From Emiliania huxleyi CCMP1516 (lineage: Eukaryota): a stretch of 64,000 nt of DNA. The notes under the pieces were generated by a model. It saw only the letters and a list, made by a program, of their open reading frames with translations. It was not told the origin of the DNA and did not search any database. Made by a program: the position numbers and the translations under genes. Position 1 is the first letter of the stretch, and every line of letters begins with the position of its first letter. The DNA lies in NCBI RefSeq assembly GCF_000372725.1, contig NW_005201113.1, positions 1-64,000 on the forward strand, in the 5' to 3' direction. This document shows positions 3,745 through 62,266 of the stretch, in pieces.

Positions 3745-6117
3745 CTATGTGGGTGTGCCACGGCGCTGCCACACCACGCCCAACGCCTCCAGCCGCTCCA
3801 CCTCCCCGTCGCTCATTGCGCTGGCCTTCCCGCGTTTACGCTCCGCCTCGCTCAGCCCTCGCGCCTTGTAGCGCTTCCGCTGGGTCGACAGCCAAGGGCC
3901 AAGCTTCTCGCCATCCTCCACATGCCCGCTTGGCACGTTGGCGTGCCCCTCTCGCTGCTTGAACGCCTGCAGCAGCCCAAACATGCGCTCCCACTGCTCC
4001 GCCAGCACATCCCAGGCCACGCCCACCGCCTCAAGCCGCTCCACCTCCTCGTCACTCATTGCGCTGGCCCTCCTGCGCTTACGCTCCGCTTCGCTCCACC
4101 CTCGCGCCTGGTAGCGCTTTCGCTGCGTCTGCAGCCAGACACCAAGCTGCTCGCCCTCCTCCACGTGCCGCATCGGCACGTTGGCGTGCCCCTCTCGCTG
4201 CCGGAACGCCTGCAGCAGCCCAAACGTACGCTCCCACTGCTCCGCCAGCACATCCCACACCACGCCCAACGCCTCTAGCCGTTGAGCGCGCATTCCCGGC
4301 AGCAGCCCATGTTTGTGAAGCTTGCGCTGGCGCTGGAGCCAAGCGCCAAGCAGCTCCCCATCCTCCTCATGCCGCCTCGGCACATTGGCGAGCCCCTCTC
4401 GCTCTCGAAATGCCTGCAGCAGCCCAAACATTCGCTCCCAGCGGTCGATGAGCTCCCGCGCCACCGTCGCAACCGTCCGCTCCGCCGCGCGCTGCACGTC
4501 GCCGCGATCTGGCAGCAGCAGCACGCTGCGCAGCGCCTCCGGCCATTCCGAGTAGTCGAGCGGCCCCCCTGCGTGCGCCTCGCCGCTGACGAGCGCAGCG
4601 AGGGCTTCGCGGAACTCCGCGTCCTGCTCGGCATACGCCCTCAAAACCGCCGTCGCCCTGCCATGTGCCCCGCCATCGGCCGCCTCCTCGCTGACCGGCA
4701 CGAGAATGTAGCCGAACGCTTTTCCCGGCGCGACGCGCGACGCGCGGCCCATGCACTGGAGGATGTCGACGTGGCTCTGCTTCGCGTCGGCAAACACGAC
4801 GAGGTCGACCGACGGCAAGTCGACGCCCTCCGCAAGCACGCGGCAGTTGGTCACGAGCTGAGTCGGTGCCTCGGCTTCGCCCGCCCGCCGCAGCGGCGCC
4901 AGCCGCCGCTCTCGCGCGTCCGACAGCATCGACCCGTTGACGCGGCCGACGGCAAACTCGTCCGACTCTAGGACCGACGTCGCGACTAGCTCGAGCCTAG
5001 CAGCGCGGGCGTTGGAGGAGGAGAAGGCAAAGGCGGTGCGGACGCCGTAGCTCCTGCGGCAGTCGAGCATGGCGAGGCAGAGCGCGACCAAGTCCGAGTC
5101 GTCCGTGTCAGAGTCGGACACGCGACCGGCCGCCCACGCTGCATACCTGTCGGCCACGTCCAGAAAGACGAGCTTGAGCGGCGACACTACCCCGAGTCGT
5201 ACCGCCTCGCCGTAGCTTAGCCGGTAAACATGCCGCCCAAAAAGGCTCTCGTCGTCCATCGATCCGGCCGGGATGAGGGCTCCGTCTGCGTCGCGCTTCT
5301 CGCCGATGAGCTTGGGCGTGGCGGTGAGGAAGAGGCGGCGGCGGGCGGGAAGAAACTCGTCAAAGAGCGGCCTCGCAAACCGCTTGCTCGTCCGTCCCGT
5401 GCAGCGGTGCGCCTCGTCACACACCAGCAGGTCGGCCGCAGCTCCAACCTCCCGCAACGCCGCGCCCACGCGATCCGCAGAGTGGTAGGTGCAGAAGATG
5501 ACGCGCGGCGCGCCCTCAGTCTCTCGGAGGAAGGTCGCAATAGCGTCAGTATCCGTCGAGCGCGGCAGCACCGCCCGTGGCACCGACGTTGACGAGCAGA
5601 CTGCCAGCGACCGCAAGCCGTCGAGCGGGCCTGGAGCCGACCGCCAGCGCTCCCAGTCGCGATGCGACTGCGAAACGAGGTCGCGCGCTGGGATGAGCAC
5701 GACGGTGAGAGACGAGGCGAGCGCCTCGGCGACGCGCAAGGCGAGGACGGTCTTGCCGGCGCCGCTGGGAAGCACCGCCGTCGCCCGCGAAGCCACCTCG
5801 CCGTCGCCAGGCGCAGCGCCGCCGCCGCCGGCACCGTCGCCGCGGCCCGTCTCGCCACCACCGTCGCCAGGAGAGCAGCCAAAGACGCGGACGATGGCAG
5901 CGCAAGCCGCGCGTTGCACGGCTGCCTTGCCGCCGCTGCTGTCGAGGGTAGCTTGCAGCAGATGGAGGTGATCGCTGTCCAGCTCTCGCGGCGGTGCCGA
6001 CGCAGGCACGGCCGGCCTGGCCGTGGTGGAGGCGGTGCTCATCGACGCGACGCGCGCATCGCGCGCTGGCGGCTGCCGAGGCGAGAGCAACGCCAGCGCG
6101 AAGAGGCTGCCGATCAT
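3745..6117 (-). CDS. SF2 (DEAH, ResIII-like) helicase with three C-terminal helicase-associated (HA) repeats; intronless
   Basis: Motifs LPSGAGKT, VCDEAHR, LTATP, LAEGVDLP, QCMGRASR. Three repeats of WERxFGLLQAFxxREGHANVP..HxExGExLGxWLxxQR..RLEALGVxW. Start placed at MIGSLFALALL (ATG 6117). Confidence 0.9.
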   Translation of the reverse strand: MIGSLFALALLSPRQPPARDARVASMSTASTTARPAVPASAPPRELDSDHLHLLQATLDSSGGKAAVQRAACAAIVRVFGCSPGDGGGETGRGDGAGGGGAAPGDGEVASRATAVLPSGAGKTVLALRVAEALASSLTVVLIPARDLVSQSHRDWERWRSAPGPLDGLRSLAVCSSTSVPRAVLPRSTDTDAIATFLRETEGAPRVIFCTYHSADRVGAALREVGAAADLLVCDEAHRCTGRTSKRFARPLFDEFLPARRRLFLTATPKLIGEKRDADGALIPAGSMDDESLFGRHVYRLSYGEAVRLGVVSPLKLVFLDVADRYAAWAAGRVSDSDTDDSDLVALCLAMLDCRRSYGVRTAFAFSSSNARAARLELVATSVLESDEFAVGRVNGSMLSDARERRLAPLRRAGEAEAPTQLVTNCRVLAEGVDLPSVDLVVFADAKQSHVDILQCMGRASRVAPGKAFGYILVPVSEEAADGGAHGRATAVLRAYAEQDAEFREALAALVSGEAHAGGPLDYSEWPEALRSVLLLPDRGDVQRAAERTVATVARELIDRWERMFGLLQAFREREGLANVPRRHEEDGELLGAWLQRQRKLHKHGLLPGMRAQRLEALGVVWDVLAEQWERTFGLLQAFRQREGHANVPMRHVEEGEQLGVWLQTQRKRYQARGWSEAERKRRRASAMSDEEVERLEAVGVAWDVLAEQWERMFGLLQAFKQREGHANVPSGHVEDGEKLGPWLSTQRKRYKARGLSEAERKRGKASAMSDGEVERLEALGVVWQRRGTPT

Positions 6118-6739
6118 CTCGGCCACTCCCAAAAAGTCGAAAAAGCAACGTCGGCGGACACTCTCAGAACCGGTGGAGCTGGGAGAGGCTAGCGAAGACG
6201 AAAGGCGGCAGCGGAGGAAGCGACACCAACAACGAGGGAAACGACCACACCGGCCGTCGTATGACGCTCGGCAAGCGAGCAAGAGAGCGAATCGGGGAGA
6301 ACCGGAGCCCCGGGAGGACCGAAGGTGGAGCCCCGGGACCGAAGCTCGAGGCGCGTGAGCCGGACCTGTGAGCCGGACCACCCCCTCTTGTTATCTGCGT
6401 TGTTGAGCCAGGACTCAACATACTCGGGCTTGCGAGTCCCAAACTGTCACTCCCCTTTCTCCCGGCCGGGGTGGGGCGCGCGCGGGGGCGGCGGGTGTGC
6501 GGCGAGCGAGTGTGCGGGATGTCTGTGGGCCCGAGAGCGATATGCCATGTCCGCCTTGCGTTGTTTCATAACATCGGAGGCTAAGCTCAAAAAGAAAAAA
6601 AGAACAAGAAGAAATCGGTCCCGTCTCTTGCAGGACCTGTCGGGTCCGGGTCGGCGGGGTCGGAACCACAAATTTCTCGGAAAAGTCGCCAGCTGAAGCG
6701 GAAGATAACAAGGCCGACTCAAGGACCAAGCAACCTGAG

Positions 6740-10320: not shown

Positions 10321-10770
10321 TGTAGCCTGATGTCGTTCTCATTGTTGTGACTTGTGTTGCGCTGCCTGGGGTGCCCGCGGTTCGTAATAACCGCCAAAAC
10401 TGCTTCGGTCTCAATCTTCAAAAGAGATGACATGTGAGCCCCGCTGCCTTCACGCAGCTTCACATTCGTCAGATCTCGATGCTTCGTCCCTACGTATTTC
10501 TGTCGTCGCCGAACGTCCGGTCGTCCGTGTATGCGCGCGCGCGCTCTAGCCGCGAACGCGGCCGAACGCGCGCATCTCGACATCGCCTTCCGCGGGGCAT
10601 ATCACAATAAAATACGTAATCACACTCACGGATCCGGACGCCGAGAGCTGCTGATCTTGATTGTGTACTGCACTCTAGAAGAGCAGAGCCCCGACACCCG
10701 AGACTCCCGTCCAAAGCTCGCGATGGCGTATGTGACCTCAACGCAAGCAAAATGTATCAGAACAGAGCCC

Positions 10771-13326
10771 TCACAGCCTTTTGCCAATCACCTCCTCGCC
10801 GTCGCCCACCCGCGTCGACAGGAAGGTGCCCGCAGACAGGTCGAAGGAAGCGTGGTGCGCGGCGCCTGTTCACGTGCAGCGACTTCACAGCTGGATGCGA
10901 GGCATGGCTGTGGTGCCGCGCCGAGCAGATGGTGTCTACGAAGCGTCTAGGAAGTGTCATGAAGAGGCCAGGAAGTGTCGTGGCTGTGTCCGGGGACGTC
11001 GATGAGAGTGTCGACGACGTGTGTCTAGGAAGCGGCGCCCGAAAAGTCGATGTACAGGCACTCCCCCGGAGGGGCGCATGCCGGCAGCCCCTTTGGCCGC
11101 AGCGCGATCCCCCACTTGCCGACACCCCACGGCGTCTTGAGCGCGCCTGCTCGCAGGTCGCGGTGTGAAGGGCCGCTGTCCACAGGCACTGGCGGGTGCA
11201 CCGCGGCGCCGTGGGCGCGCCCGCGGGCAGGAAAGAGAGCGTCTTGATGCCGGCCCACGTCCAGTGCGAGCCAACCACCGCCGAGGCGAGCGCCGACTTT
11301 TGGATCTCGTCGGCCGTCGCGCCCTCGCGCCTCCAGCCAATGGTGCCCATCGCGTTGGTGGCGGGCCACGTGTCGCCCGCCTCGGTGATGGCCTCATTCC
11401 ACGCCGCATGCAGCCACTTTGTGGACGGGTTGGCCTGCTTGGGCGGCGGGTCGAGATTCGGCGGCGGGTAGGCGCCTCCGTAGTGCCTCTTGTCCAGCGA
11501 CCACTCGCCGATGGTGTTGAAGCCCTGGGGAGAGCCGTTGAGCCGGTACTCGATGCCGTACGTGTAGTGGAAGATTTGGTAGCCCTTCTCGAACCCGTCC
11601 TTTGTCCCCGCATACGCATTCGGCTCGATCTGCATGCCCTTGACAGAGTGTCGGATCCCCAAGCTGGCGGCGGCGATCGAGTAGCCCCACATCTCGAGCA
11701 CCCAATCTTGGATCCGGTGCGCCGGCTCGGGGCGCCCTCGCAGAATGTACGAGCAGTTGAGCCACAGAGGGGCCACCTTGCGAAGCAGCTCCTTCTCGAT
11801 GATGAGCGGCGACGGCCCGACGGCCTGCAAGCTCTTAAAGTCGCCCTGCGGCCAGCAGTACTGGATCACCGAATTGTGCCCCGACGATGCATGCATGTAC
11901 CTGTGAGAGGATAGGCGCGGAATCAACCGACAGATGCGACAAGAAGCGCCCTCGACGCACGGCGTGTACCCGAATCCGTGCGCCGCCGCCAGAGGCGGCG
12001 AGTCGGCGGTGGCGTCAGTCGCGAGGTTGGGCATCGGCTTTGTGAGGACGTGGTCCGTCTCGGCCACGAGGACGTACCTGCCGGGAGGGGGGAAGGGGGG
12101 GGGGGGTTCGGGGCTCCGGTGCAATCAAAGGTAACGGAGGATTAGGCATTGTTGTCATTAGGAGAGATTGTGATGCAATCTGTCGTTGTGGCGCACTTCT
12201 CCTTGACGCGGTCTGCGAGGCCGCGCCGGAAGAACTCGACCACCGAGTGGGGCCGATTCAGGACCCCAAAGTGGCCGTACTTGGCCAGCACCTCGGGAGC
12301 GAGGGAGACAGTGAGGGCGTGAGGGAGACGGAGACGGACGCGGAGAGGGAGCGAGGGCGAAGGCGAGGGTGAGGGTGAGGGTCAGTCACTGTCACTGTAT
12401 CAGCGGGGCGCGCCTCGGGCGTGAGCGATGGCACGAACACGGAAGGGATATACGGCGCCGCCGCATCGGGCAGCCCTCCCTCGGACGCGCAGACGCGCCT
12501 AAAAAGAAATCTAACGCGCGGCTCAGGGCAGGCTCCATCCGGCGGTCCTCCTCAGAGGCGCGGGCGCGCGTGAAGCCGGTCATCTCGGTGCACTCTCCGT
12601 CCGCCGCCTAGACGAGAGGCACGCTGAGAATAGAGAACAGAAAGAGCTGGGCACAAGTGCACGGCCCATCAGTCGCCCGCTGCTTCCGCCAGTGATAGTA
12701 CATGATCCGGCTCTGCCAGCCGTTGTAGGTGGTCCCTACAACAGGGAGGGCCCGAGAAGCTTCGGAGGGGCAGGACGGTTCCGAGAAGAGTCAGCCGCTC
12801 ACGTGATGTGGAAACCGCAAGTGCTATGAATCTAGGGGTTCGTGTTCTGGATCTAGGCGCAGCTACCCTGGCCGGTCAGTAGCGTGTGGAAGGGTCGGCG
12901 GGTCTTGGGGCACGCGGGGTTGTCGAGCGAGATCTCGCGGTGCAGCCTGCCGCCCGCACCGCCGCCGCCGCCGCTTCCGCCACCGCTGCTGCCACCGCCA
13001 CCGCCACCGCCGCCGCCACCGCCGCCGCCACCGCCGCCGCCACCGCCGCCGCTGCTGCTGCCGCCGCTGCCGCCGCCGCCGGACGCGGCTGCGGTCGATG
13101 CCGCGCCGGAGGAAGCGGGCTGTGCGGTCGCCGCCTCGGTAGCCGCAGGCGCGGCGGCGGCCGGCACGGCTGCCGTGTCTGCCCTCGCGACTCGGGGTGC
13201 TGCAAGCGAGGTGTCGCCAGGCGACGCTCGCTGCTCAACGCCGAAGAGCGAGCCGCATAGGTTCCACCAGGCAACAAGGGCGAGAAGGTAGACGAGCAAG
13301 CCGAGCAGGCGGTACGACGCACCCAT
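10771..13326 (-). CDS. Hydroxyproline O-arabinosyltransferase (HPAT/GT95)-like type II membrane glycosyltransferase with an extra C-terminal domain (multi-exon)
   Basis: N-terminal TM (LLGLLVYLLALVAWW), Gly stem, PFHTLLT..YNGWQSRIMYYHW, MTGFTR, VLNRP, YVLVAETDH...PMPNLA, GPSP, WVLEMWGYSIAAA, FHYTYG, GEWSLDKRHY; stop TGA 10771-10773. Confidence 0.85.
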
Positions 13327-19401: not shown

Positions 19402-22400
19402 ATGATGCGCCAGACGCCGCAGCCGACCGATCCCGGCTCCTCGGAGCCGGTCAGCGAGACCGAGTCGGGCTGCGAGTCGGCCGACCCGATCGCGCCAGAG
19501 ACCGTTCGGATGCTGCGCCTCGAACTCGAGGGCGAGCGGCGGCAAAACAAGCAGTGGCAGGCCAAGCTCAAGCGAGCGGCCAAGCTCAACGAGCAGCTGG
19601 TGAGGACCGCCGCCTGGCCCCGCGCCGCCGCCGCCGCCGCCTCCGCGTCGGCCTGCGCGTCCGCGTCCGCCGCCTCGTCCCTCGCCGCCACCACCTCTGC
19701 TGCGTCCGGAGTTCCACCGGAAGAGGCGCTTACGTAACTAACCACAATGACGGGGCTGGAATTAGCACATCCACCCTAAGACATGCTTACACACAACCGA
19801 ACAGAACCCGAGCCAGAACTATCTCAGTGACTACCACATGTGCTATGCCACCATGCACGATAACACACAATAAAATCTGATGGGCACTCNNNNNNNNNNN
19901 NNNNNNNNNNNNNNNNNNNNNNNNNNNNNNNNNNNNNNNNNNNNNNNNNNNNNNNNNNNNNNNNNNNNNNNNNNNNNNNNNNNNNNNNNTGGCCCTCCTC
20001 GTCGTAGATCACAGTGGTCCAGCTGCCGCCGCGACGGGTCCACCCCCGGTGAGCTCGTACGTCCCGACTCCACTCGCAGAGGTCGCGTCAGCTCATCTCT
20101 CGCCTCCTCCGACAGTTGACCCCAAGCCCCCCCTGGGGCCTGGGGCCCTCCGGCCTCGGCCTTCCGGCTCGCCGGCGGGCCCGTTATTTATCGTATTGCG
20201 GTAACTCCCCTCCCCCAGCTCCTCCTCCCGGGTACTCCAGCCTCCGGCGGGGCGGCTCCGGATCCCCCAGGTTATTCCGAGCGTGTCCATACGGTGGCAG
20301 CCCCGCCGGCGGCGGGGGTGGAGGCGGCGGCAGGGGTGGCGGGTACGGTGGCGAGGGCGCTAAGAGGTTCCTCTTTTCCGCGCCCCCCCCCGCAAGGCGC
20401 GCGATACACACGGTGGCGACCCTCGCGGCCAAAGCGCCTGGTGTGGAGCCGCCGGGGCGGCTCCACGTCCCTTCTGAGGGAGGGAGAGGGAGAGAGAGAG
20501 GGAGGAGGACGACACACCGCCATCCATCCGTTGACTGAGTCACGCCTCCGTCGCTACTGGGCCAGGTCGAGATGGAGGAGGAGAACATCACAAACAAGCT
20601 CTACAAGAAGCTGGAGCAGGTGCCGCGCCAGCCCGAGATTGCCCGAGATTGCGCGCGAGATGACGTGAGATGGCACGAGATGGCGCGAGATGACGCGAGA
20701 TGGCGCGAGATGACGCGAGATGATGGCGCGGAGATGACGCGAGATGATGGCGCGAGATGATGGCGCGAGATGACGCGAGATGACCCCCCCCCCCCCCCCA
20801 CCCCCCGCAGGTCAAGCAGGAGAAGGTGTCGCTCGAGAATCTGCTCGAGCAGGCGCGCAAGAGCACCCCGCCCGTCACTCGGCCGCTAGCGCCTCGCTAG
20901 CTAGCTGGTTAGTGGAGGAGCGCCCGAGGAGCTAGCTGATTAGTGGAGGAGCTCGTTAGCTAGCCATTAGTGGAGGAGCTAGCTGATTAGTGGCTCGAGC
21001 ACGGCCTGTGTCCTTCGACGCCGGGGGGCNNNNNNNNNNNNNNNNNNNNNNNNNNNNNNNNNNNNNNNNNNNNNNNNNNNNNNNNNNNNNNNNNNNNNNN
21101 NNNNNNNNNNNNNNNNNNNNNNNNNNNNNTGGGATCCCCGCCTCCTAAAAGTGGGCTCTAAGCTGGGGCACAGGTCCTTGGAAGGAAGCTTATGGTGAGC
21201 TCCAGCTAGGGAGCTTCTTCGTTCCTAACTATATCCACAGGGAATGCGATGACGCCTCCATTCACACACCTCTATTCACACACCTCTATTCACACCCGTA
21301 AGGCGCAGGAGCGGTACCGGACCGAGTGCGAGGCCCGCAGCAAGTGTCGTCAGAAGAGAGAGGGGGGGTTCACGCTGGTAGGGTTGATGACTGCCTCTCA
21401 CACAGCAGGCGCAGCGAGATTCCCCGAGATCCCCCGAGATCCCCCGAGATTCCCCGAGATCACCCGAGAGTACCCGAGAGGAGCCGAGAATACCCGAGAT
21501 TCCCCGAGAGTACCCGAGAGTACCCGAGAGTCCCCGAGACTGATGGCTGCCTCTCTCACTGCAGGCGCAGCGGGCGTCGTCGGAGAAGCTCGAGCGCGAG
21601 TTGGCGAGGCTGCAAGCTGACAACGCGGGCTTGCAGCACAAGGCCGAGAGATTGCACGAGAGGAGCCGAGATCACTCGAGATCACCCGAGATCACTCGAG
21701 CGTAGCCGAGAGGACCCGAGAGGAGCCGAGAGTAGCCGAGAGGAGCCGAGAGTAGCCGAGAGGAGCCGAGAGCAGCCGAGAGCAGCCGAGAGCAGCCGAG
21801 AGCAGCCGAGAGCAGCCGAGAGTAGCCGAGAGGAGCCGAGAGGAGCCGAGAGGACCCGAGAGGACCCGAGAGGACCCGAGATCACCCGAGATCACCCGAG
21901 ATCACCCGAGATCACCCGAGATCACCCGAGATCACCCGAGATCACCCGAGATCACCCGAGATCACCCGAGATCACCCGTGACTCACTGAGGAGCAGGTCG
22001 CGCGCGAGCACGAGATCACTCGAGATCACCCGAGATGACCCGAGATCACCCGTTGCTTACTTAGCAGGTCGCGCGCGAGCACGAGATCCGCATTGCGGCG
22101 CAGGTGATCTCGGGTAATCTCGGGCAATCTCGGGCAATCTCGGGTAATCTCGGGCAATCTCGGGCAATCTCGGGTAATCTCGAGCACGAGATCCGCATCG
22201 CGGCGCAGGAGGAGAAGCTGCGGCTGGAGCGCGAGATTGAGATGGACTCGGAGCGCCATTTCAACTCCTGCTCCTCGCGCTCCTCGCTCTCGCTACCCGG
22301 GTCGCCCTCCGTCGCCGCCTCCGCGCCGACGATGCCTTACCCCAACCTGCACCTGCCGCCGGGCTCGTACCACCTAGAAGCGGAAGACGTGTCCATGTCT

Positions 22401-22881
22401 CCCAACCAGCACTCGAGAGGGAACGTGCTCAGCCGTACTCCACTGTGTTTGCGTATTCACGACGTAAGCTCGCACGGCACCGAGAGGAGCCGAGAGGACC
22501 CGAGAGGACCCGAGAGTAGCCGAGAGTAGCCGAGAGTAGCCAAGAGGACCCGAGATCACCCGAGAGTACCCGAGAGGACCCGAGAGGACCGGAGAGGACC
22601 CGAGAGGACCCGAGAGGACCCGAGAGGACCCGAGAGGACCGGAGACTACCCGAGAGGACCCGAGAGGACCCGAGAGGACCGGAGACTAGGCTCCTACGGC
22701 ACCGCCTTCGCGTCGCTCGGCAAGCTCTCCCCGCAAGCTTCCTTCACGCTCAGCGCGCCCGGCCCGCCGTCTCCAAAGTGGGCGGCGCTCGCGCCCGCGA
22801 GGATGCACTGGGAATGGCGTCTCTTCACACCTCCTGGCTGTGAATAGGTGGGCGGCGCTCGCGCCCGCGAGGATGCACTGA
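19402..22881 (+). CDS. CCDC6-like (DUF2046) coiled-coil protein; multi-exon, spans two gaps
   Basis: Exons MLRLELEGERRQNKQWQAKLKRAAKLNEQL, EMEEENITNKLYKKLEQ, VKQEKVSLENLLEQ, KLERELARLQADNAGLQHK, LEREIEMDSERHFN. These resemble the CCDC6 motifs EQEEEFISNTL.KK and EMDDERYFN. Confidence 0.7.
19990..20472. repeat. Inverted copy of 14175-14657 inside the first intron of the CCDC6-like gene; truncated by a gap
   Basis: Reverse-complement identity; ends GTGGAGCCGCCGGGGCGGCTCCAC-GTCCCT. Confidence 0.9.
21415..22686. repeat. Intronic 10-bp tandem arrays (CCGAGATCAC / CCGAGAGGAC / ATCTCGGGCA variants)
   Basis: Decamer periodicity visible between short exons; similar arrays at 20635-20783, 31976-32118, 32610-32769, 49225-49300 and 54361-54560. 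Confidence 0.95.
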
Positions 22882-31045: not shown

Positions 31046-31215
31046 CCCCCCCCGGGAGCCCCCCTCCAGCCGGTAGTGCCAGTGCGCGCCAGTCCCGTGC
31101 CTAGTGTATCGTGCGCGCGAGCAAAATTCTCTTTTTCACCCTCCTTTCAGTCGACCGCTGCCGGGGCCCCCCGGGGCCGCTCGGCCGCTCGGCGGACACC
31201 ACCCGCCAACGGCAT

Positions 31216-33612
31216 ATGGCCACCAAGTTCCCCGCGCCGAGCTGGGCGACGGAGACCACCCACGCCAACCTCGCGCTCGAAGTGCGGAGCGGCGGGACGC
31301 TTCTGCGCCGGCACGAGCTCCCGCGCGGCCGCCGCGTGTTTGTGATCGGGCGGCAGGCGGACGTGGCCGACGTGGTGGTCCGCGACGACGAGACGGCATC
31401 GCGGCAGCACTGCGCCATCGTGCCGCGCGGCGAGCGCCTCTACCTCATCGACCTCCGCTCGACGCGCGGCACCTTTGTCGACGGGGCGCGCCTCCCGCCG
31501 AACGAGCCGACCGAGCTGTCTCCCGGCGCCAGGCTGGCGCTGTCGGACGCGCCGCCGTACTCGATCGAGCTCGTCGGCCTCCCGCGCGCCGGCCTTGCAG
31601 CCGCCTCCTCGGTGCCCATCTCCATGGCGGCGGCGGCGCACGTGCCGCCCCGGTGCAGCGGTGCCCTCTGGCTGTGAGCAGCGTCTCTTCACACCTGCAG
31701 CTGTGAACAGGTGCCGTCCCGGTTCTCGGGCGACCCGTCCTACTATAACCAAAAGTGGGACCCTGACGCGGCGGCCGCGAGGCGAGACGAGGCGCTTCAG
31801 TTGGAGACGAACCTCCGCTGGTCACCGCCTGCGTGGGCGGTGATGGGGACGGGCGCGAGCCTCGCGGTCAACCTCGTCGAGGGCGGGGAGGTCGTCCAGG
31901 CGCTCGGCCTGCGGCAGAGTGATTCGTAGTGGATGGTTCAGAGTCATTGCTGGACTCTCTGAGCCAGATGACTCAATCTCCCGCTATCTCCCCCAATCTC
32001 CCCCAATCTCCCCCAATCTCCCCCAATCTCCCCCAATCTCCCCCAATCTCCCCCAATCTCCCCCAATCTCCCCCAAGTACTCCCTGAATCTCCCCCAATC
32101 TCCCCCAATCTCCCCCAAGTCTCTCTCAAGTAGTGAATGCATCTCAACCAGGCGCTCGACCTGAGCCAGAAGAAGGCGTATGTGCTCGGCCGCTCCCGCG
32201 AGCAGGCGGACTACGTCGTCCCAGTCGTGTGTCCTGGACACGTCCACGACATGTCCGAGACACGTCGCCGATAGGCGGACTACGTCGTCCCGGACGAGTC
32301 GGTCGTGTGTCCGGGACACGTCCACGACATGTCCGAGACACGTCGCCGATAGGCGGACTACGTCGTCCCGGACGAGTCGGTCTCGCGGCCGCAAGTACCA
32401 CACCCCCCCAGAGTCTCGAATCCAGTGTGGGTTCAGCTCCGTGGGTGGTGTGGTAGGTCTCTCGGCAGCACGCGGCGCTAATGCACGGGCCTCCCGACCC
32501 CCCGCGGCCCGGCGAGGCGCACGAGGCGCTTCTCACGCCGTGGCGCTGCCGCTGCGGCTGGGAGAACCGGCCGACGAACGGCGTCTGTGGCGGAGGCCGC
32601 AGGCACGCAATCTCCCACAATCTCCCCCAATCTCCCCGTCTCTCCCGCAATCTCCCGCCATCTCCCGCCATCTCCCCCGATCTCCCGCTATCTCCCCCAA
32701 TCTCCCGCAATCTCCCGCTATCCCCCCAATCTCCCCCAATTTCCCTAAATCTCCCCCAATCTCCCGCAGGCCGTACGGTTGCGGCGTCAACCGCGCCGTC
32801 GGCTGTCCAGATTACAGGTGCCCGCCACCGCCGCGCAGACGGCTCTTCACACCTCTAGCCGTGAGCAGCGTCTCTCCACACCTGCAGCTGTGAACAGGCC
32901 CGCCACCGCCGCGCAGACGTCGCTGCACGTGGCGGACCTCGCCTCGACAAAAGGCACGTTCCTCGACACGGGCGACGGCGTCTGGCGGCGGCTGCAGCAG
33001 CAGACGCCCATACGAGTGCCGCCCGGCGGCTGCCTCCAGCGGCGCGGCGAGTGCGAGGTGTGAGCAGCGCGTCTTCACACCTGCAGCTGTGAACAGGCGG
33101 CCGCCTCCGGCTCGGCGAGTGCGAGACGCTGGTGGTGCGTCCCGCGCCGCCCAGCCAGCCCGCGCACCATCCGACGCAGAGCATCGTGCCGATGGGCGCC
33201 GCCGCCCTCGCGGCGGCTCGAGCCGCCGCGGCGTCGCGCGCCGCGGAGGACGACAAGACGTCCGCGTACCGAAAGGCGAGCTCTTCCATCCCTTCACTCG
33301 TTCATTAGCGCAGCCCGCCGAGGGGCGATCTCTTCACTCAGATACCCAGTGCATTCACGCAGCCCGCCTAACCGAAAGGCGATGGAGGCGGCCGCGGCCC
33401 TCGTCGCGCCGCCCTCTCGCAAGCACGTCTCGGAAGCCTTCTCGGCGCTGCCGCCCCCGCCGCCGCCGCCAGACGAAGAGCAAGACGAGGCGGCGGAGGT
33501 GGCGGCGGCGGAGGCGGCCCAGCCTGAGCCGGGGTGGCCCGTGTCGGAGGCGAAGCGGCAGAGGGCGGGACCGGCAGAGGAGGGGTGGGTGGCGTGGGAG
33601 CAAGTAGAGTGA
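31216..33612 (+). CDS. Protein with two FHA domains (NIPP1/kanadaptin-like), at least 8 introns
   Basis: FHA1: P.WA...VFVIGRQ...SRQHCAI...LIDLRSTRGTFVDG. FHA2 assembled from exons: PPAWA...AYVLGRS..ADYVVPDESVSRQHAAL...VADLASTKGTFLD...PGGRLRLGE. Confidence 0.85.
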
Positions 33613-56780: not shown

Positions 56781-57104
56781 GTTTTCCGTCGGCAAGGGTT
56801 TAGGTTCTAGCGCGTGTGGTATGCCCATCACCGGCGCGAATCGCGGTTGTTTCGCGTTGTTAGCCAGACGAGGTGATGTCGAGCAACAGCCCGCAGTGCA
56901 CACCCGCGCGCGCGAATGCAGGAGCCTCCCTCTATGCACATCCGGGGGGGCAAAGGGTTGGGTTTGTTGGGGGTATGGCGATGCGTGCACACCGAAAAGA
57001 TGCTTCCTAAAACTAAAATGTTTGAAGAAACTTCACAAACATGAGCGCCCGCCATATAAAGGCGCCCGTTGACTCCTCGCGCCCGGTGCTCGCCCCCGGC
57101 ACGA

Positions 57105-59168
57105 ATGCCTCCGTCCGGCGACTCCAGCCCGAGACGCAGCCTCTGGCCGCTGCGCCGAAGGCGGCGCCCGCCGGCGCGCGACGGGCCAGCACCGCAGCGC
57201 TTCTTCCTCCCATCGTTGCAGCTGGACGCCGGCCGCGGCGCCCTCGTCGGTCCCAGCCTCGCCGCCCTGTTTGACATCGGCCCCGAGCTGGGTGCGGGGC
57301 GCACGGCAGTTGTGAACCTCGCGGTGCGAAAGGCGGGCGGCAAAGCGTGGGGTAGGAGCGCCCTCAAGCGCTTCTCCGTGGCGGACCTGGCGGAGCATGA
57401 GGAGGATGCAGAGATGCTCCTCGCCGAGGTGGCCATCCTGTCGGCCGTGCCGCCGCATCCCGGCCTCGTGCGGCTGCTGCAGGTGGCGTGTACGCCGGCA
57501 GCGGTGGCGCTCAATCTCGAGTACATTTGCGGCGGAGACCTCTTCGCCTACATTCTGGAGGCTGGTGGGCTGGACGAGGCCGAGGCGCGGCCGCTCTTCG
57601 CGCAGATTGTGGCCGCGCTCGAGCACCTCCGCGCGCACGGGATCTGCCACCGTGATGTCAAGCCTGAGAACTGCTGCTTCGCCGACCCGATGCGGCGAGT
57701 GATCAAGGTTGTGGACCTTGGCGCCGCCGCATTCATCTCTAGCGCCGGCTTCACCTCTCTCGCCGGAACGCCGCTCTATGCGGCTCCCGAGATCTGTCCG
57801 TGGTACTTTGAGACGGTGCGCTCTGCAGACCGCCGCCCGGTCGACCCGCGGCTCTCCGTCTCCGCCTTCTCCTCGCCCAATAGCTCGCCGCCCGACACAC
57901 CGACGCCACAGCTGAAGCAGCGCAACGACGTCCAGCCGCCCGCTGCCGGCGACGCACCGCGTAGATTCGACGCGCTGGAGAGTCAGACCATACCGGCGCC
58001 GATGCCTCCGACGCCCACGCTCGAGGCCGAGTTTGGGCCTGGGAGCGGCGCGGGGAGCGTGAGCGGCTCTCTGCAGCCGTACGGGGCGGAGGTGGACCTG
58101 TGGGCGTTGGGAGCCACCCTCTACGTCATGCTCTCCGGCGAGCCGCCCTACGACCAATCGCTCGAGGTGAGACGGGACAGGGCGGAGATGAGGCAGGTTG
58201 GGCCCCGACACGTGAGACCGACTCATTCCTCCCTCTCCCCCTCCTTTCCCGTTAGGAGGAGGAGCTCTTGGAGCAGATCTGGGCGACCCCGCCGACAGGC
58301 TTGCGAATGAGAGGCGCAAGGAGAGGAAAGGATCTCCCGCGCCTCACCCTACGTCCTGTCCTCATCAGGCGTGCCAATGTCCTCCGCGGCGTGGCGCGGT
58401 GTCTCGAACGAGGCCATGCGGCTAATCCTGAGCCTCATGTCACGCCGCCCGGAGAGCCGCCCAGCCTACGCTGCGGTTCGGGCGCATCCGTGGTTCGCTC
58501 GCGTTGCTGCTTCAGGCCCCTCGGTCGGCGGCGCAGAAGCGCGCGCGTTGCCCTTTGTCCCTCCTCCGAGGCCGCCGGGTCTAGAGGATGCGACGGCGCC
58601 GCGCGGCTCGACGCCGCCGCCGCAGTCCTCGCTTCTGCCCGCCCCGAGCTTGGCACCGCCCTCGCTGTCTATGCCGGCGCTGCCGCTGGCGCCAACTGTC
58701 AATGACCCCGAGGTCGAGGAGGGGCTCGCGTTTGTATGCACCACGCTCGACCCGAAGAGAGTACACGATTTGGCGGGCGATTTGCAGCTCCTTCTACTCC
58801 CTGAGCCGCACGCCATCGGGAGGGTGCGAGCGGTGACACTGCGCTTCGATGGGAGAGGCGGAGTGACTCCGCTGCCGCACGCCACGCCATCGCCGCTCGC
58901 TGTCACCGCCTGCACTCGCCTCGGTCTCCTGCGCTGGGCTACCGGAGAAGGGCCCTTCACTCCGGCGGCCGACCCGGCGGTCGGTTCCTTGGCGCCGCGC
59001 CTCGTCAGCGCGCTGGCACCGGAGAGGAGGGCGTTTCGAGCGTGGCTAGCAGAGAGACGAGCTGGCGAGAGGGAGTGTGTGGCGCCTGTGGGGCGCAGCC
59101 CGAGGCGCGTACCCTCCTTCGCGAAGCTGCGAGGCCGCGCTGCTAATGGTACTCCACGCGACCACTGA
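57105..59168 (+). CDS. CAMK-like Ser/Thr protein kinase (multi-exon)
   Basis: LGAGRTAVV, ALK, HPGLVRL, LEYICGGDLF, HRDVKPEN, DLG, GTPLYAAPE, DLWALG..LYVMLSGEPPY, RP....HPWF. Confidence 0.92.
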
Positions 59169-59674: not shown

Positions 59675-62266
59675 TCATGGGGAACGCGGTGCGCCTGCGG
59701 CGGGCCGCACCACCACCCTTGGCAGCACAAAGCTGCGCCAGAGGTCCGCCAGCCCCGGCGCCGCCCCCTCGCCGTCGAAGCGCTCCTCGTCCCAAGCGAT
59801 CAGGTAGCCCAGCCGCATCACCTCGACCGCCCGCTTGCGAGCCGCCTCCGGGAAGAGCTCGTGCGACTGCGGCGACCACTCCGCCGCCTTGAGGATGAGC
59901 CTGCCCACCTCCACCGCCGCGGCCGCTGGCTCCAGGCTGGCCGGCCTGAGGGAGGGCAGAGGCGTGGGGTGTGTCCAAAGAGAGGATCCGGCGAGTGGGG
60001 GAGAGGCCATAGCGCGCCTCATAGCGAGGGCCTTGGCCTCGCCCGCCACGCGCACGCCGAAGCGTCCCGTCGAAGCGCTCGCGAAAACGACGACGCCGAC
60101 CTTGCCATTCATCGACGGCCGCGAGACGAGAGAGTGGATCGCGACGGTGGAGCCGACGGCCGCAGCGGTCGGATCCGACTCGCCCCACGAGCAGAGGACG
60201 CGCGCCCGCTCGAGGGCCGACGGCTCGCCGGCCGAAGAGTCCGCGCCGCCGCGCAGCAGCGCCCGCGCCCGGTCGACGGTGAGCGCCTGCGGGAAGAGGG
60301 ACAGTGAGCGTGAGGATAATGCGCTCACGCTTCTTCAGCCGCTAGTCTCGGGCACGCCTCGAGGTGCTGGAGCGGCGTCCAGCCGCGGCTGGCGACCAGC
60401 CAAGCGGCGAGGTCGGCGTGGCCGCTGCGGCTTGCGGCCTCCTCGGACGTGCCGAGGAGCGTTGCGGCGCGGGAGGCGCCGTAGGAGGAGAGGAGCTGAA
60501 CGACCTCGAGGTGGCCCGCCGCGCACGCCATGCTCAACGGCATGACGCCGTCCTCCTCGGCTTGGTTGACTGCCGCGCCAGCCTCGAGGAGCAGCCGGGC
60601 GAACTTGAGCTGGCCCTGCTGGCACGCCACGAACAGCGGCGTGACGCCATTCTTCTTGGCTTGGCTGACCGCCGCGCTAGCCGCGAGAAGCAGCCGAGCG
60701 ATCTCGAGGTGGCCGTTCTGACACGCCATGAACAGCGGCGTGGCGCCATCCTGCTTGGCTTGGTTGGCCGCCGCGCTGGCCTCGAGGAGCAGCTGGGCGC
60801 ACTCGAGGTGGCCGTTCTGGCACGCGATGAGCAGCGGCGTGGCACCTTGCTCCTCGGCTTGGTCGACCGCTGCGCCAGCAGCGAGAAGCAGCCGGGCGCA
60901 CTCGAGGTGGCCATTGTGGCTCGCGATGAACAGCGGCGTGGCGCCTTGGTTCTGGGCTTGGCCGACCGCCGCGCTGGCCTCGAGGAGCAGCCGGGCGATC
61001 TCGAGGTGGCCGTTAAAGCACGCGATGTACAGCGGCGTGGCGCCGTCCTCTGCGGCTTGGTCGACCACTGCGCCCGCCTCGAGTAGCAGCCGGACGATCT
61101 CGAGGCGGTTGTTCTGGCACGCAGTGTGCAGCGGGGAGACGCGGCCGTCGTTGGTTTGGCCGACCGCCGCGCCAGCCTTGAGGAGCAGCCGGGCGCACTC
61201 GAGGTGGCCCTCCTGGCACGCCATGAGCAGCGGCGTGGCGCCTTGCTCGTCGGCTTGGTCGACCACTGCGCCAGCAACGCACAGCAGACGGACGATCTCG
61301 AGGTGGCCACTCTGGCTCGCGACGCGCAGCGGCGTGAAGCCGTTGTTCGTCGCTTGGTCGATCGCCGCGTTGGCCTCGAGGAGCAGCCGGGCGATCTCGA
61401 GGTGGTTGTTCTGGCACGCGATGTACAGCGGCGTGCCGCCTCGCTTCACGGCTTGCTTGATCGCCGCGCCAGCCTTGAGGAGCAGCCGGACGATCTCGAG
61501 GTGGCCGTTCTGGCACGCCATGAGCAGCGGCGTGGAGCCATCCTTCATGACTTGATCGACCGCCGCGTTGGCCTCGAGGAGCAGCCGGGCGCACTCGAGG
61601 TGGCCGTTCTGGCACGCGATGTACAGCGCGGAGCCGCCGCGGCTGCCAGTCGTCACCCCAACGCTCGCGCCGGCTTCGAGCAGCAGCCGCACCGCCTCGG
61701 CTTGCCCGTGGCGAGCGGCCAAGGTGAGGAGCGTGTCCTGCTTCTCGGTGTCGAGCCGCGCGTCGAGCTGCGCCGTGAGCGACGTGCCGCGCGTCCCCCA
61801 CTCGGACAGGACGGCGCGCAGCGAGCCCAGGTCGCCCACCGCCAGGTCGGCCGGGAGGCTTTGTGATCCCCAGAAAGAAGAATTTTAGTATACAAGCCCC
61901 TCTCACAGCAGACTGGCTCGGACTGGCACTACAAATGGCACAGCAGGCGACGGCCCCTTACGGGTCGTCAAAGAGGCCGGCGTACTCCTCCGGCCGCTCC
62001 TCCCCCTCCCAATCCTCCCCGGGCTCTGGCTCCTCCTCCTTCGCCCGCGCCCTCGCCCCCCGCCGGCGGCGATTCCGTGCGGCCGTCGCCCCCGCCCCCT
62101 CCCCGCCCCCATCACGGCCGGAGCCGTACCACCCAGCGCGCACGAGGAACGAGGACTGAGCCTCAACCTCGTCCAACCTCACCGCCCTCACGGCGGCGTC
62201 GCACGCCTCAGCCCGCGAAGCGCCAGCAGTATGCGCCGCGGCGTACGCCGCGTCGCCGCGGCGCAT
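59675..62266 (-). CDS. Ankyrin-repeat protein (about 13-14 repeats) with a C-terminal domain
   Basis: Repeated G.TPL..AC.NGHLE..RLLL.A.A.VDQA in 60325-61839, further exons to 59675, and a putative first exon at 61955-62266. Confidence 0.88.

What the first reader, a model, noticed from the sequence alone, without database searches (positions are those of the whole stretch)
31642..33125. Same ...TTCACACCTGCAGCTGTGAACAG insert forms three separate introns in one FHA gene
Seen: introns 31642-31710, 32818-32897 and 33026-33096 all end in GTGAGCAGCG(T/C)..CT(T/C)CACACCTGCAGCTGTGAACAG, with a TTCACA/TGTGAA stem. Each begins with a copy of the next exon's start: GTGCCGCCCCGG vs GTGCCGTCCCGG; CCCGCCACCGCCGCGCAGACG twice; GCGGCTGCCTCCAGC..CGGCGAGTGCGAG vs GCGGCCGCCTCCGGCTCGGCGAGTGCGAG. 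Removing them rebuilds canonical FHA motifs. Repeated independent insertion of one family, with duplications at different stages of decay, suggests an active intron-generating element family.
Basis: partly seen in the sequence, partly recalled or inferred. Interest (0 to 1): 0.9.

Follow-up and report, generated by a model that had tools for sequence, protein, structure and literature searches.

The report
Introns built from duplicated exon starts
In a marine alga, probably the coccolithophore Emiliania huxleyi, many spliced introns of about 70 bases consist of a 15-40-base copy of the next exon's start followed by a roughly 40-base tail shared with other introns, which likely records a way of making new introns by pasting the end of an existing intron into a gene.

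Summary
Confirmed and wider than reported. The three inserts exist; RNA contigs remove introns 1 and 3 exactly, while intron 2 rests on reading frame only. The shared tail is a high-copy family: 114 unique copies, 109 followed by G; 61 of 96 non-tandem copies carry a duplication of the next exon's start, against 2 of 1422 controls. Unit length is 68±4 nt, and one RNA contig splices out all five predicted units of another gene. The design is not specific to this family: 6 of 7 introns of this gene and about 38 further events use unrelated tails. Same-gene neighbours share bases in register (6 of 12 against 0.13 expected). Best reading: templated insertion with a ~29-nt target duplication that supplies a GC/GT/GA donor, copying an existing intron's 3' end. 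Not shown: the enzyme, RNA versus DNA template, absence from orthologues, present activity (no empty allele seen). Published catalogues list ~70-nt E. huxleyi Introner families of unknown mechanism, but not this architecture in what I could read.

The parts
31216..31641 (+). Exon 1 of a two-FHA-domain gene (410-aa model); complete FHA1
   Evidence: Pfam FHA E 1.2e-17; RNA contigs X7 rec 24, X1 rec 2
31642..31710 (+). Family intron 1 (69 nt, phase 0): 12-nt decayed copy of next exon start, 17 nt of other origin, tail 31671-31710
   Evidence: Removed exactly in RNA contigs of X1 and X7
31711..31899 (+). Exon 2
   Evidence: X7 rec 24
31900..32151 (+). Intron (252 nt, GC-AG): copy of next exon start (16 of 20) plus 10-nt tandem-repeat filler; other family
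   Evidence: 252-nt removal in X7 rec 24
32152..32205 (+). Exon 3 (start of FHA2)
   Evidence: X7 rec 24
32206..32352 (+). Two head-to-tail units (69 and 78 nt) with 17- and 27-nt copies of the next exon start and the same palindromic filler; other high-copy family
   Evidence: (D3); depth pile; boundaries from reading frame
32353..32379 (+). 27-nt exon 4 (predicted)
   Evidence: reading frame
32380..32456 (+). Intron (77 nt): copy of next exon start (10 of 12) plus a strong hairpin filler (z -5.75); third family
   Evidence: depth pile; boundaries from reading frame
32457..32602 (+). Exon 5 (3' end predicted; the listed X7 piece stops at 32596)
32603..32769 (+). Intron (167 nt, predicted) of 10-nt repeats; the only one without a recognisable duplication (3 of 12)
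   Evidence: not bridged in listed RNA pieces
32770..32817 (+). Exon 6 (predicted)
   Evidence: reading frame
32818..32897 (+). Family intron 2 (80 nt, phase 2): GT, exact 22-nt copy of next exon start, part of a second 29-nt tail unit, tail 32858-32897; other alleles lack two bases at the donor
   Evidence: table 4; splicing inferred from frame only
32898..33025 (+). Exon 7 (C-terminal part of FHA2)
   Evidence: X7 rec 28
33026..33096 (+). Family intron 3 (71 nt, GC donor, phase 1): decayed ~30-nt copy of next exon start, tail 33059-33096
   Evidence: 71-nt removal in X7 rec 28
33097..33309 (+). Last coding exon
   Evidence: X7 rec 28 to 33267
22778..22847 (+). Fourth, variant family copy: perfect 33-nt duplication plus 37-nt tail (70 nt); splicing not tested
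21997..22067 (+). Same design with a different 10-nt-repeat filler: perfect 21-nt duplication, 71 nt; splicing not tested

Best explanation
These spliced ~70-nt introns, each a copy of the next exon's start plus a ~40-nt tail ending in AG, likely arise by templated insertion at a staggered break about 29 nt wide, in which a polymerase likely copies the 3' end of an already existing intron, often one in the same gene. Fill-in would duplicate the target, so that the left copy supplies the donor (GC, GT or GA taken from exon sequence), the pasted tail supplies branch region and acceptor, and splicing restores the mRNA exactly. Selection would keep insertions that start at a G and give an intron near 70 nt. 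The family is then a successful lineage of intron ends, one of several, not a transposon with its own two termini. Later in-register conversion between copies would erode the duplication from its 3' side without changing the length. Shown: architecture, splicing, high copy number, generality over tails, same-gene sharing. Inferred: the break, the direction of copying, the selection filter. I lean about 55:45 to an RNA template with a reverse transcriptase over a DNA template with a repair polymerase.
For: 114 unique forward copies; 109 followed by G (GC 55, GT 41, GA 12); duplication in 61 of 96 non-tandem copies against 2 of 1422 cross-pairings. Unit length 68.1±4.1 nt (n=53); where the duplication abuts the tail it measures 20-32 nt, 12 of 18 at 28-32. 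The 3' end is fixed at AG; the 5' edge is mostly at -38 to -41 (46 of 53); loose contig ends with unlike flanks pile at 31671-73 and 31711-14. One X7 RNA contig removes all five predicted units of locus L044 (71, 68, 71, 66, 66 nt), and the DNA-type runs X4 and X6 show none of these joints. Same design with unrelated tails: 43 of 87 cleaned events, about 5 of them degenerate family copies, median 70 nt, in six other multi-member tail groups and 19 singletons; raw scan 362 hits against 5 in shuffled sequence. Extra bases between duplication and tail match a same-gene neighbour in register in 6 of 12 cases (four gene pairs) against 0.13 expected; the 13 extra bases of L045 equal the exon-derived part of L005. 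17 of 71 loci hold two or more separate copies.
Against: No empty allele at the three FHA sites or the five L044 sites; of 19 overlapping locus pairs none lacks a family unit outright. So the pre-insertion state is inferred. Same-gene similarity is weak overall (permutation p=0.034; none within the tail itself, p=0.66), and in-register sharing could be later gene conversion. Junction microhomology is marginal (11 of 53 against 11.7%, p=0.04). The sharp 5' edge at about -40 with an 11-nt direct repeat looks more like an element terminus than random truncation. A few copies lie reversed (L026), which a pure intron-RNA template explains poorly. The narrow total length is not explained by a known enzyme. 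Most loci come from two near-identical assemblies, so from about one population.
Confidence: 0.55

Rival explanations
1. The 40-nt tail is a true non-autonomous mobile element (Replitron-like or Penelope-like) with defined ends, moved by a dedicated enzyme that makes ~29-nt target duplications; the other tails are other passengers of that enzyme, and same-gene sharing is later conversion.
For: Sharp 5' edge and an 11-nt direct repeat at both ends, 29 nt apart; high homogeneity (87 of 114 copies at least 90% like the majority); head-to-tail units. Replitron-1 has short direct terminal repeats, an RG target and variable-length duplications (PMC10288648 passages); Penelope-like elements give short 5'-truncated, tandem insertions (PMC9977147 and PMC8557442 passages).
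Against: Tails of the same design include microsatellite-like, AT-rich and unique sequences with no shared termini; no fuzzy 3' end; no transposase or reverse transcriptase among 29 long window ORFs scanned or in the ORFs I read beside the odd copy in L073 (by eye); no match in viral contigs.
Confidence: 0.25
2. A ~70-nt exon stretch first duplicates in tandem and one copy is spliced out; its 3' part is then overwritten by ectopic conversion from other introns, which supplies a good acceptor.
For: Explains the constant total length and the inverse relation between duplication and filler (rho -0.87, n=31; partly an artefact of measuring filler as length minus duplication); whole-unit tandem copies exist (L043 versus L072); alleles L045 and L068 have different 5' fillers at the same length.
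Against: A raw exon duplication needs an AG at the right place before conversion; duplications abutting the tail cluster at 28-32 nt instead of running towards 70; I saw no similarity to the exon resuming beyond the tail edge in the listed units.
Confidence: 0.13
3. The positions are old introns whose contents were replaced: the 5' part by slippage from the next exon and the 3' part by conversion among introns; no intron gain.
For: No empty allele found; orthologue test not possible for the three positions.
Against: A relative (P0001, 69% identical in FHA1) aligns without insertion across three neighbouring duplication-type intron positions of FHA2, which means absence if it is an unspliced gene call on its 14.7-kb contig (assumption). 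Five units lie within about 720 nt of L044. Donors carry almost no consensus beyond G|G.
Confidence: 0.07

Closest known systems
[quoted passage not shown]
   Same: Multi-copy intron family; acceptor on the insert; donor (GT/GC/GA) from duplicated exon sequence; exact mRNA restoration.
   Different: Duplication of 15-40 nt (mode about 29), nearly half of the intron, against 3-9 bp; no terminal inverted repeats; only the 3' half is shared between copies; unrelated tails share the design.
E. huxleyi CCMP1516 Introner families in the Gozashti catalogues (PMC9860276 supplement rows; PMC12130899 supplement 8 rows)
   Same: Two 2022 families average 70 nt with TSD and TIR marked '?'; 2025 fam24 (5 members, about 70 nt) is noted '10bp terminal direct repeats', 'co-opt 5' carry 3'', class Unknown. 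It may be a subset of this family.
   Different: Their tables give at most a 2-bp TSD for it and few members; their filter demands similarity along the whole intron (passages), which would miss most copies here. No sequences were in the rows I saw, so identity is untested.
Intron gain by staggered double-strand-break repair in Daphnia (PMC4202315 passages)
   Same: [quoted passage not shown]
   Different: Repeats there are 4-12 bp; here about 29 nt, with fillers from recurrent intron-end families and a fixed total length.
Tandem genomic duplication and local intron propagation in Oikopleura (PMC3443670 passages; bioRxiv 10.1101/051292 passages)
   Same: Donor made from duplicated exon sequence; copying of intron sequence to nearby sites.
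   Different: Here only the first 15-40 nt are duplicated and the acceptor is imported; the two processes appear joined in one event.
Replitron-1 and Chlamys Penelope-like elements of Chlamydomonas (PMC10288648, PMC9977147, PMC8557442 passages)
   Same: Variable-length target duplication; short direct terminal repeats (Replitron); fixed 3' end, short and tandem insertions (Penelope-like).
   Different: No coding partner found; not reported to create introns in the passages read; no fuzzy end.

Membership tests
Introner (Gozashti et al. definition) | Insert is removed as a spliceosomal intron | tested here: met
   RNA contigs, (2 of 3; 4 of 4 family units plus one other)
Introner (Gozashti et al. 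definition) | Many similar copies in unrelated genes | tested here: met
   114 unique copies in 71 loci; summed contig depth about 900-1900 times the flanks (not a copy number)
Introner (Gozashti et al. definition) | Similarity runs over the whole intron, to both ends | tested here: not met
   Conservation starts at about -40 of ~69 nt; only a small subgroup shares its 5' part (L003, L019, L022, L060, L062)
Introner (Gozashti et al. definition) | Position absent from orthologues or other alleles | tested here: inconclusive
   No empty allele; homologues do not cover the three positions
MITE-type DNA-transposon Introner | Short fixed target duplication (3-9 bp) | tested here: not met
   20-32 nt at direct junctions
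MITE-type DNA-transposon Introner | Terminal inverted repeats at both ends | tested here: not met
   The ends are an 11-nt direct repeat; the internal near-palindrome folds no better than shuffles
Replitron (non-autonomous) | Short direct terminal repeats and variable target duplication | tested here: met
Replitron (non-autonomous) | Shared termini with a Rep HUH-coding element | not testable with these tools
   No genome held; none seen in 29 window ORFs
Target-primed retroposed copy (SINE or Penelope-like) | Fixed 3' end, variable 5' end, variable target duplication | tested here: inconclusive
   3' end fixed and duplication variable, but the 5' edge is mostly at -38 to -41 (46 of 53)
Target-primed retroposed copy (SINE or Penelope-like) | Poly(A) or shared 3' tail with an RT-coding partner | tested here: not met
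   The tail ends at the acceptor AG with no poly(A); a partner could not be sought genome-wide
Intron by tandem genomic duplication | Whole intron is a copy of adjacent exon | tested here: not met
   Only the first 25.7±6.7 of 68 nt

The most novel reading that the evidence does not exclude
This alga has a genome-wide intron-making process in which any intron's 3' end is pasted into a ~29-nt staggered break, preferentially in the same gene, so that introns breed introns without a transposon. A large share of its introns, its GC-donor majority and its 10-nt intronic repeats would stem from this one process, and the spliceosome would find the donor mainly by distance (~70 nt) from the acceptor.
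Probability: 0.4. Interest if true: 0.92.

Novelty: new variant of a known kind. Interest (0 to 1): 0.78.

Why it matters
How new spliceosomal introns arise is still open in most lineages. Here each intron carries a long, datable footprint of its target and, in some cases, of its donor, so genealogies of introns, direction of copying and RNA versus DNA templating become testable in a cultured alga with many sequenced strains. It offers one cause for the unusual majority of GC donors reported for E. huxleyi (56-65%, PMC4028052 passages): donors taken from GC-rich exon sequence. It also shows a blind spot of Introner searches that demand whole-intron similarity, and it warns annotators that junctions are ambiguous over 20-30 nt.

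Tried and rejected
No whole genome is held for this window, so no genome-wide count. Viral contigs: 0 matches. Rfam on 31100-33500: 0 matches at E 1 or better. Hairpin as key feature: rejected, z about 0. Branch-point block as cause of the 40-nt tail: the best yUnAy-like site (consensus recalled) lies about 20 nt from the AG, not 40; dropped. L073, a copy without duplication, as the end of an autonomous element: no such ORF seen by eye (not scanned against Pfam). Transposase or RT in the window: none in 29 of 107 long ORFs scanned. Excess mismatches next to the donor: not significant (p=0.11). Orientation test by a codon model: 38 sense and 14 antisense of 52, but the model was trained on a gene model with one boundary off by one base, and several 'antisense' calls read as plausible protein on the sense strand; not used. 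Control anchors were contaminated by reverse-strand reads of the same events; replaced by shuffles and cross-pairing. One search included reverse reads (194 unique); 80 were dropped. The 94 'other' events include protein repeats; 50 of all 137 events were dropped. Earlier scan notes for this genome or sequence: none. Literature: ten searches found no description of exon-start duplications in haptophyte introns; Read et al. 2013 is not held, subscription papers such as Huff et al. 2016 were not seen, two supplement files of PMC12130899 were not searched, and the supplement of PMC9860276 was cut when stored.

Full report
Observation. The three inserts are present at the stated coordinates and share an exact 21-mer ending in the acceptor AG; no shuffle of the window gives one match. 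Each starts with a copy of the next exon's start: 11 of 12 nt, 22 nt exact from 32820, and 11 of 12 with later decay. The host gene model has eight exons and 410 codons with two FHA domains. RNA contigs remove intron 1 (runs X1, a guessed RNA run, and X7), intron 3 (X7) and the 252-nt intron at 31900-32151 (X7). Intron 2 is not bridged in the listed pieces and rests on the reading frame. Because of the duplication, a spliced RNA looks like an empty DNA allele; the runs X4 (kind unknown) and X6 (guessed DNA) show contigs entering the inserts, and X1 has the same organism code, which favours splicing.

Organism. No tool names it. About 65% GC, a majority of GC donors (as reported for Emiliania huxleyi, PMC4028052 passages), marine metagenome matches and 10-nt intronic arrays (recalled from Read et al. 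2013, not held) point to E. huxleyi or a close Gephyrocapsa. This is inference, about 90%.

The family. Summed contig depth over the tail is roughly 900-1900 times that of the flanking exons, and loose ends with unlike flanks pile at 31671-73 and 31711-14 (the tool warns this is no copy number). A metagenome scan gave 81 loci, mostly from two near-identical assemblies. Allowing three mismatches and dropping 80 reverse reads of the near-palindrome leaves 114 unique copies; 109 are followed by G (GC 55, GT 41, GA 12). Conservation begins about 40 nt before the AG. Of 96 copies not followed by another unit, 61 have a duplication of the next exon's start, against 2 of 1422 cross-paired controls. 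In 53 young copies the unit is 68.1±4.1 nt and the recognisable duplication 25.7±6.7 nt; where it abuts the tail it is 20-32 nt, 12 of 18 at 28-32. Donor context is little more than G|G. As an independent test I laid four runs on locus L044: one X7 contig removes all five predicted units (71, 68, 71, 66, 66 nt; four of this family, one of another), X1 shows the first joint, and X4 and X6 show none.

The design is wider than the family. Six of the seven introns of this gene begin with a copy of the next exon (10-12 of 12 nt, intron 2 read from 32820), with four different fillers. A scan of all fetched DNA found 362 raw events against 5 in shuffled sequence. After cleaning (87 of 137 unique events kept), 42 belong to the family, 2 are reverse reads and 43 do not match it (about 5 of these are degenerate copies); those 43 have a median length of 70 nt, 35 within 60-78, and tails that are 10-nt repeat arrays, palindromes, AT-rich or unique sequence. 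So the shared motif is no generic acceptor, and it is also not the cause of the duplication.

Signs of local templating. 17 of 71 loci hold separate copies on one strand, while the 64-kb window has one clear copy outside this gene. Bases lying between duplication and tail match a same-gene neighbour exactly and in register in 6 of 12 cases (pairs in L006, L009, L010, L026) against 0.13 expected. In three of these the shared bases overlap the upstream intron's own duplication, which suggests upstream-to-downstream copying (my reading). One cross-gene case exists: L045 carries 13 bases of the exon-derived part of L005. Against this, similarity within the tail is not higher among neighbours, the permutation test is weak (p=0.034) and junction microhomology is marginal (p=0.04). 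Later gene conversion could produce the same sharing.

Age and activity. Alleles L063 and L017 (98% exon identity for L063) carry all three inserts with different decay; contigs of X1 and X6 lack two bases at the donor of intron 2, which would leave the exact GC-starting duplication. No empty site was seen at eight positions. Of 19 overlapping locus pairs, one differs by an extra tandem unit (L043/L072), one by an 82-nt insert of another type (L008/L051) and one by a likely assembly collapse. A relative, P0001, aligns without insertion across three neighbouring duplication-type positions, which means absence only if it is an unspliced gene call; it does not cover the three family positions. 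Perfect 20-36-nt duplications argue for recent events, but present activity is not shown.

Mechanism. I favour templated insertion at a staggered break about 29 nt wide, copying the 3' end of an existing intron, followed by selection for spliceable products and by in-register conversion (0.55). The exact stop at AG and the same-gene, same-strand bias suit an excised intron or pre-mRNA as template; rare reversed copies suit DNA. Rivals are a dedicated non-autonomous element (0.25), 70-nt exon duplication followed by conversion (0.13) and turnover of old introns (0.07). The narrow total length is unexplained: either an enzymatic ruler or splicing that measures from the acceptor.

Comparison and novelty. 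It works like Introners that carry the acceptor and take the donor from the target duplication (PMC9860276 passages; bioRxiv 10.1101/2020.10.14.339549 part 1 of 4), but fails their whole-intron similarity, short-duplication and inverted-repeat features. Supplement rows list E. huxleyi Introner families of about 70 nt with unknown mechanism, one noted for 10-bp terminal direct repeats, so part of this family may be catalogued. Daphnia break-repair introns have 4-12-bp repeats (PMC4202315 passages). Ten literature searches found no account of ~30-nt exon-start duplications with exchangeable tails; several key papers are outside the library. Other papers were seen as passages only: PMC12130899, PMC10288648, PMC9977147, PMC8557442, PMC11282704, PMC8469720, PMC3443670, bioRxiv 10.1101/051292 (51). 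Verdict: real, new variant of a known kind, interest 0.78.

Noticed in passing
window 32206-32352; L005, L014, L020, L029, L048, L052, L072: Head-to-tail units with no exon between them, each ending AG and followed by G; in the window the two units have different duplication lengths (17 and 27 nt). Candidates for stepwise splicing and for re-insertion at a regenerated target.
   Followed up: partly
window 31671-31710 and 32842-32897: The tail's two 11-nt direct repeats are 29 nt apart, the same as the commonest target duplication; intron 2 holds part of a second 29-nt unit.
   Followed up: partly
window 32394-32456: A different high-copy intron tail forms a strong hairpin with inverted ends (z -5.75), the most MITE-like filler seen.
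   Followed up: partly
L045 and L068: Two alleles of one intron share the 15-nt duplication and the length (68 and 69 nt) but have different bases before the tail.
   Followed up: partly
L003, L019, L022, L060, L062: A subgroup shares its whole ~70-nt sequence, including a GT-starting 5' part, across different loci; the likeliest match to published whole-intron Introner families.
   Followed up: partly
L026:536-606 (+) versus 1169 and 1331 (-): Family copies in reversed orientation relative to two other copies and to an apparent ABC-type reading frame.
   Followed up: partly
L008 versus L051 (L051 alignment position 427): 82-nt insert with a 10-nt duplication present in one assembly and absent in the other; no AG|G design.
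   Followed up: no
P0001 C-terminal part: A 10-residue stretch recurs 31 residues later just after the second FHA's conserved histidine, as if a more distant alga had a read-through duplication-type intron.
   Followed up: no
window 32457-32897 (FHA2): FHA2 carries an insertion of about 60 residues with several cysteines, absent from FHA1.
   Followed up: no
L044:258-491: 234-nt segment absent in contigs of X6 and X7 but present in X4.
   Followed up: no
window 3745-6390 (-), 10757-12124 (-), 57060-58310 (+), 60325-61884 (-): Helicase with helicase-associated repeats, hydroxyproline O-arabinosyltransferase, protein kinase and ankyrin-repeat ORFs; ordinary neighbours.
   Followed up: no
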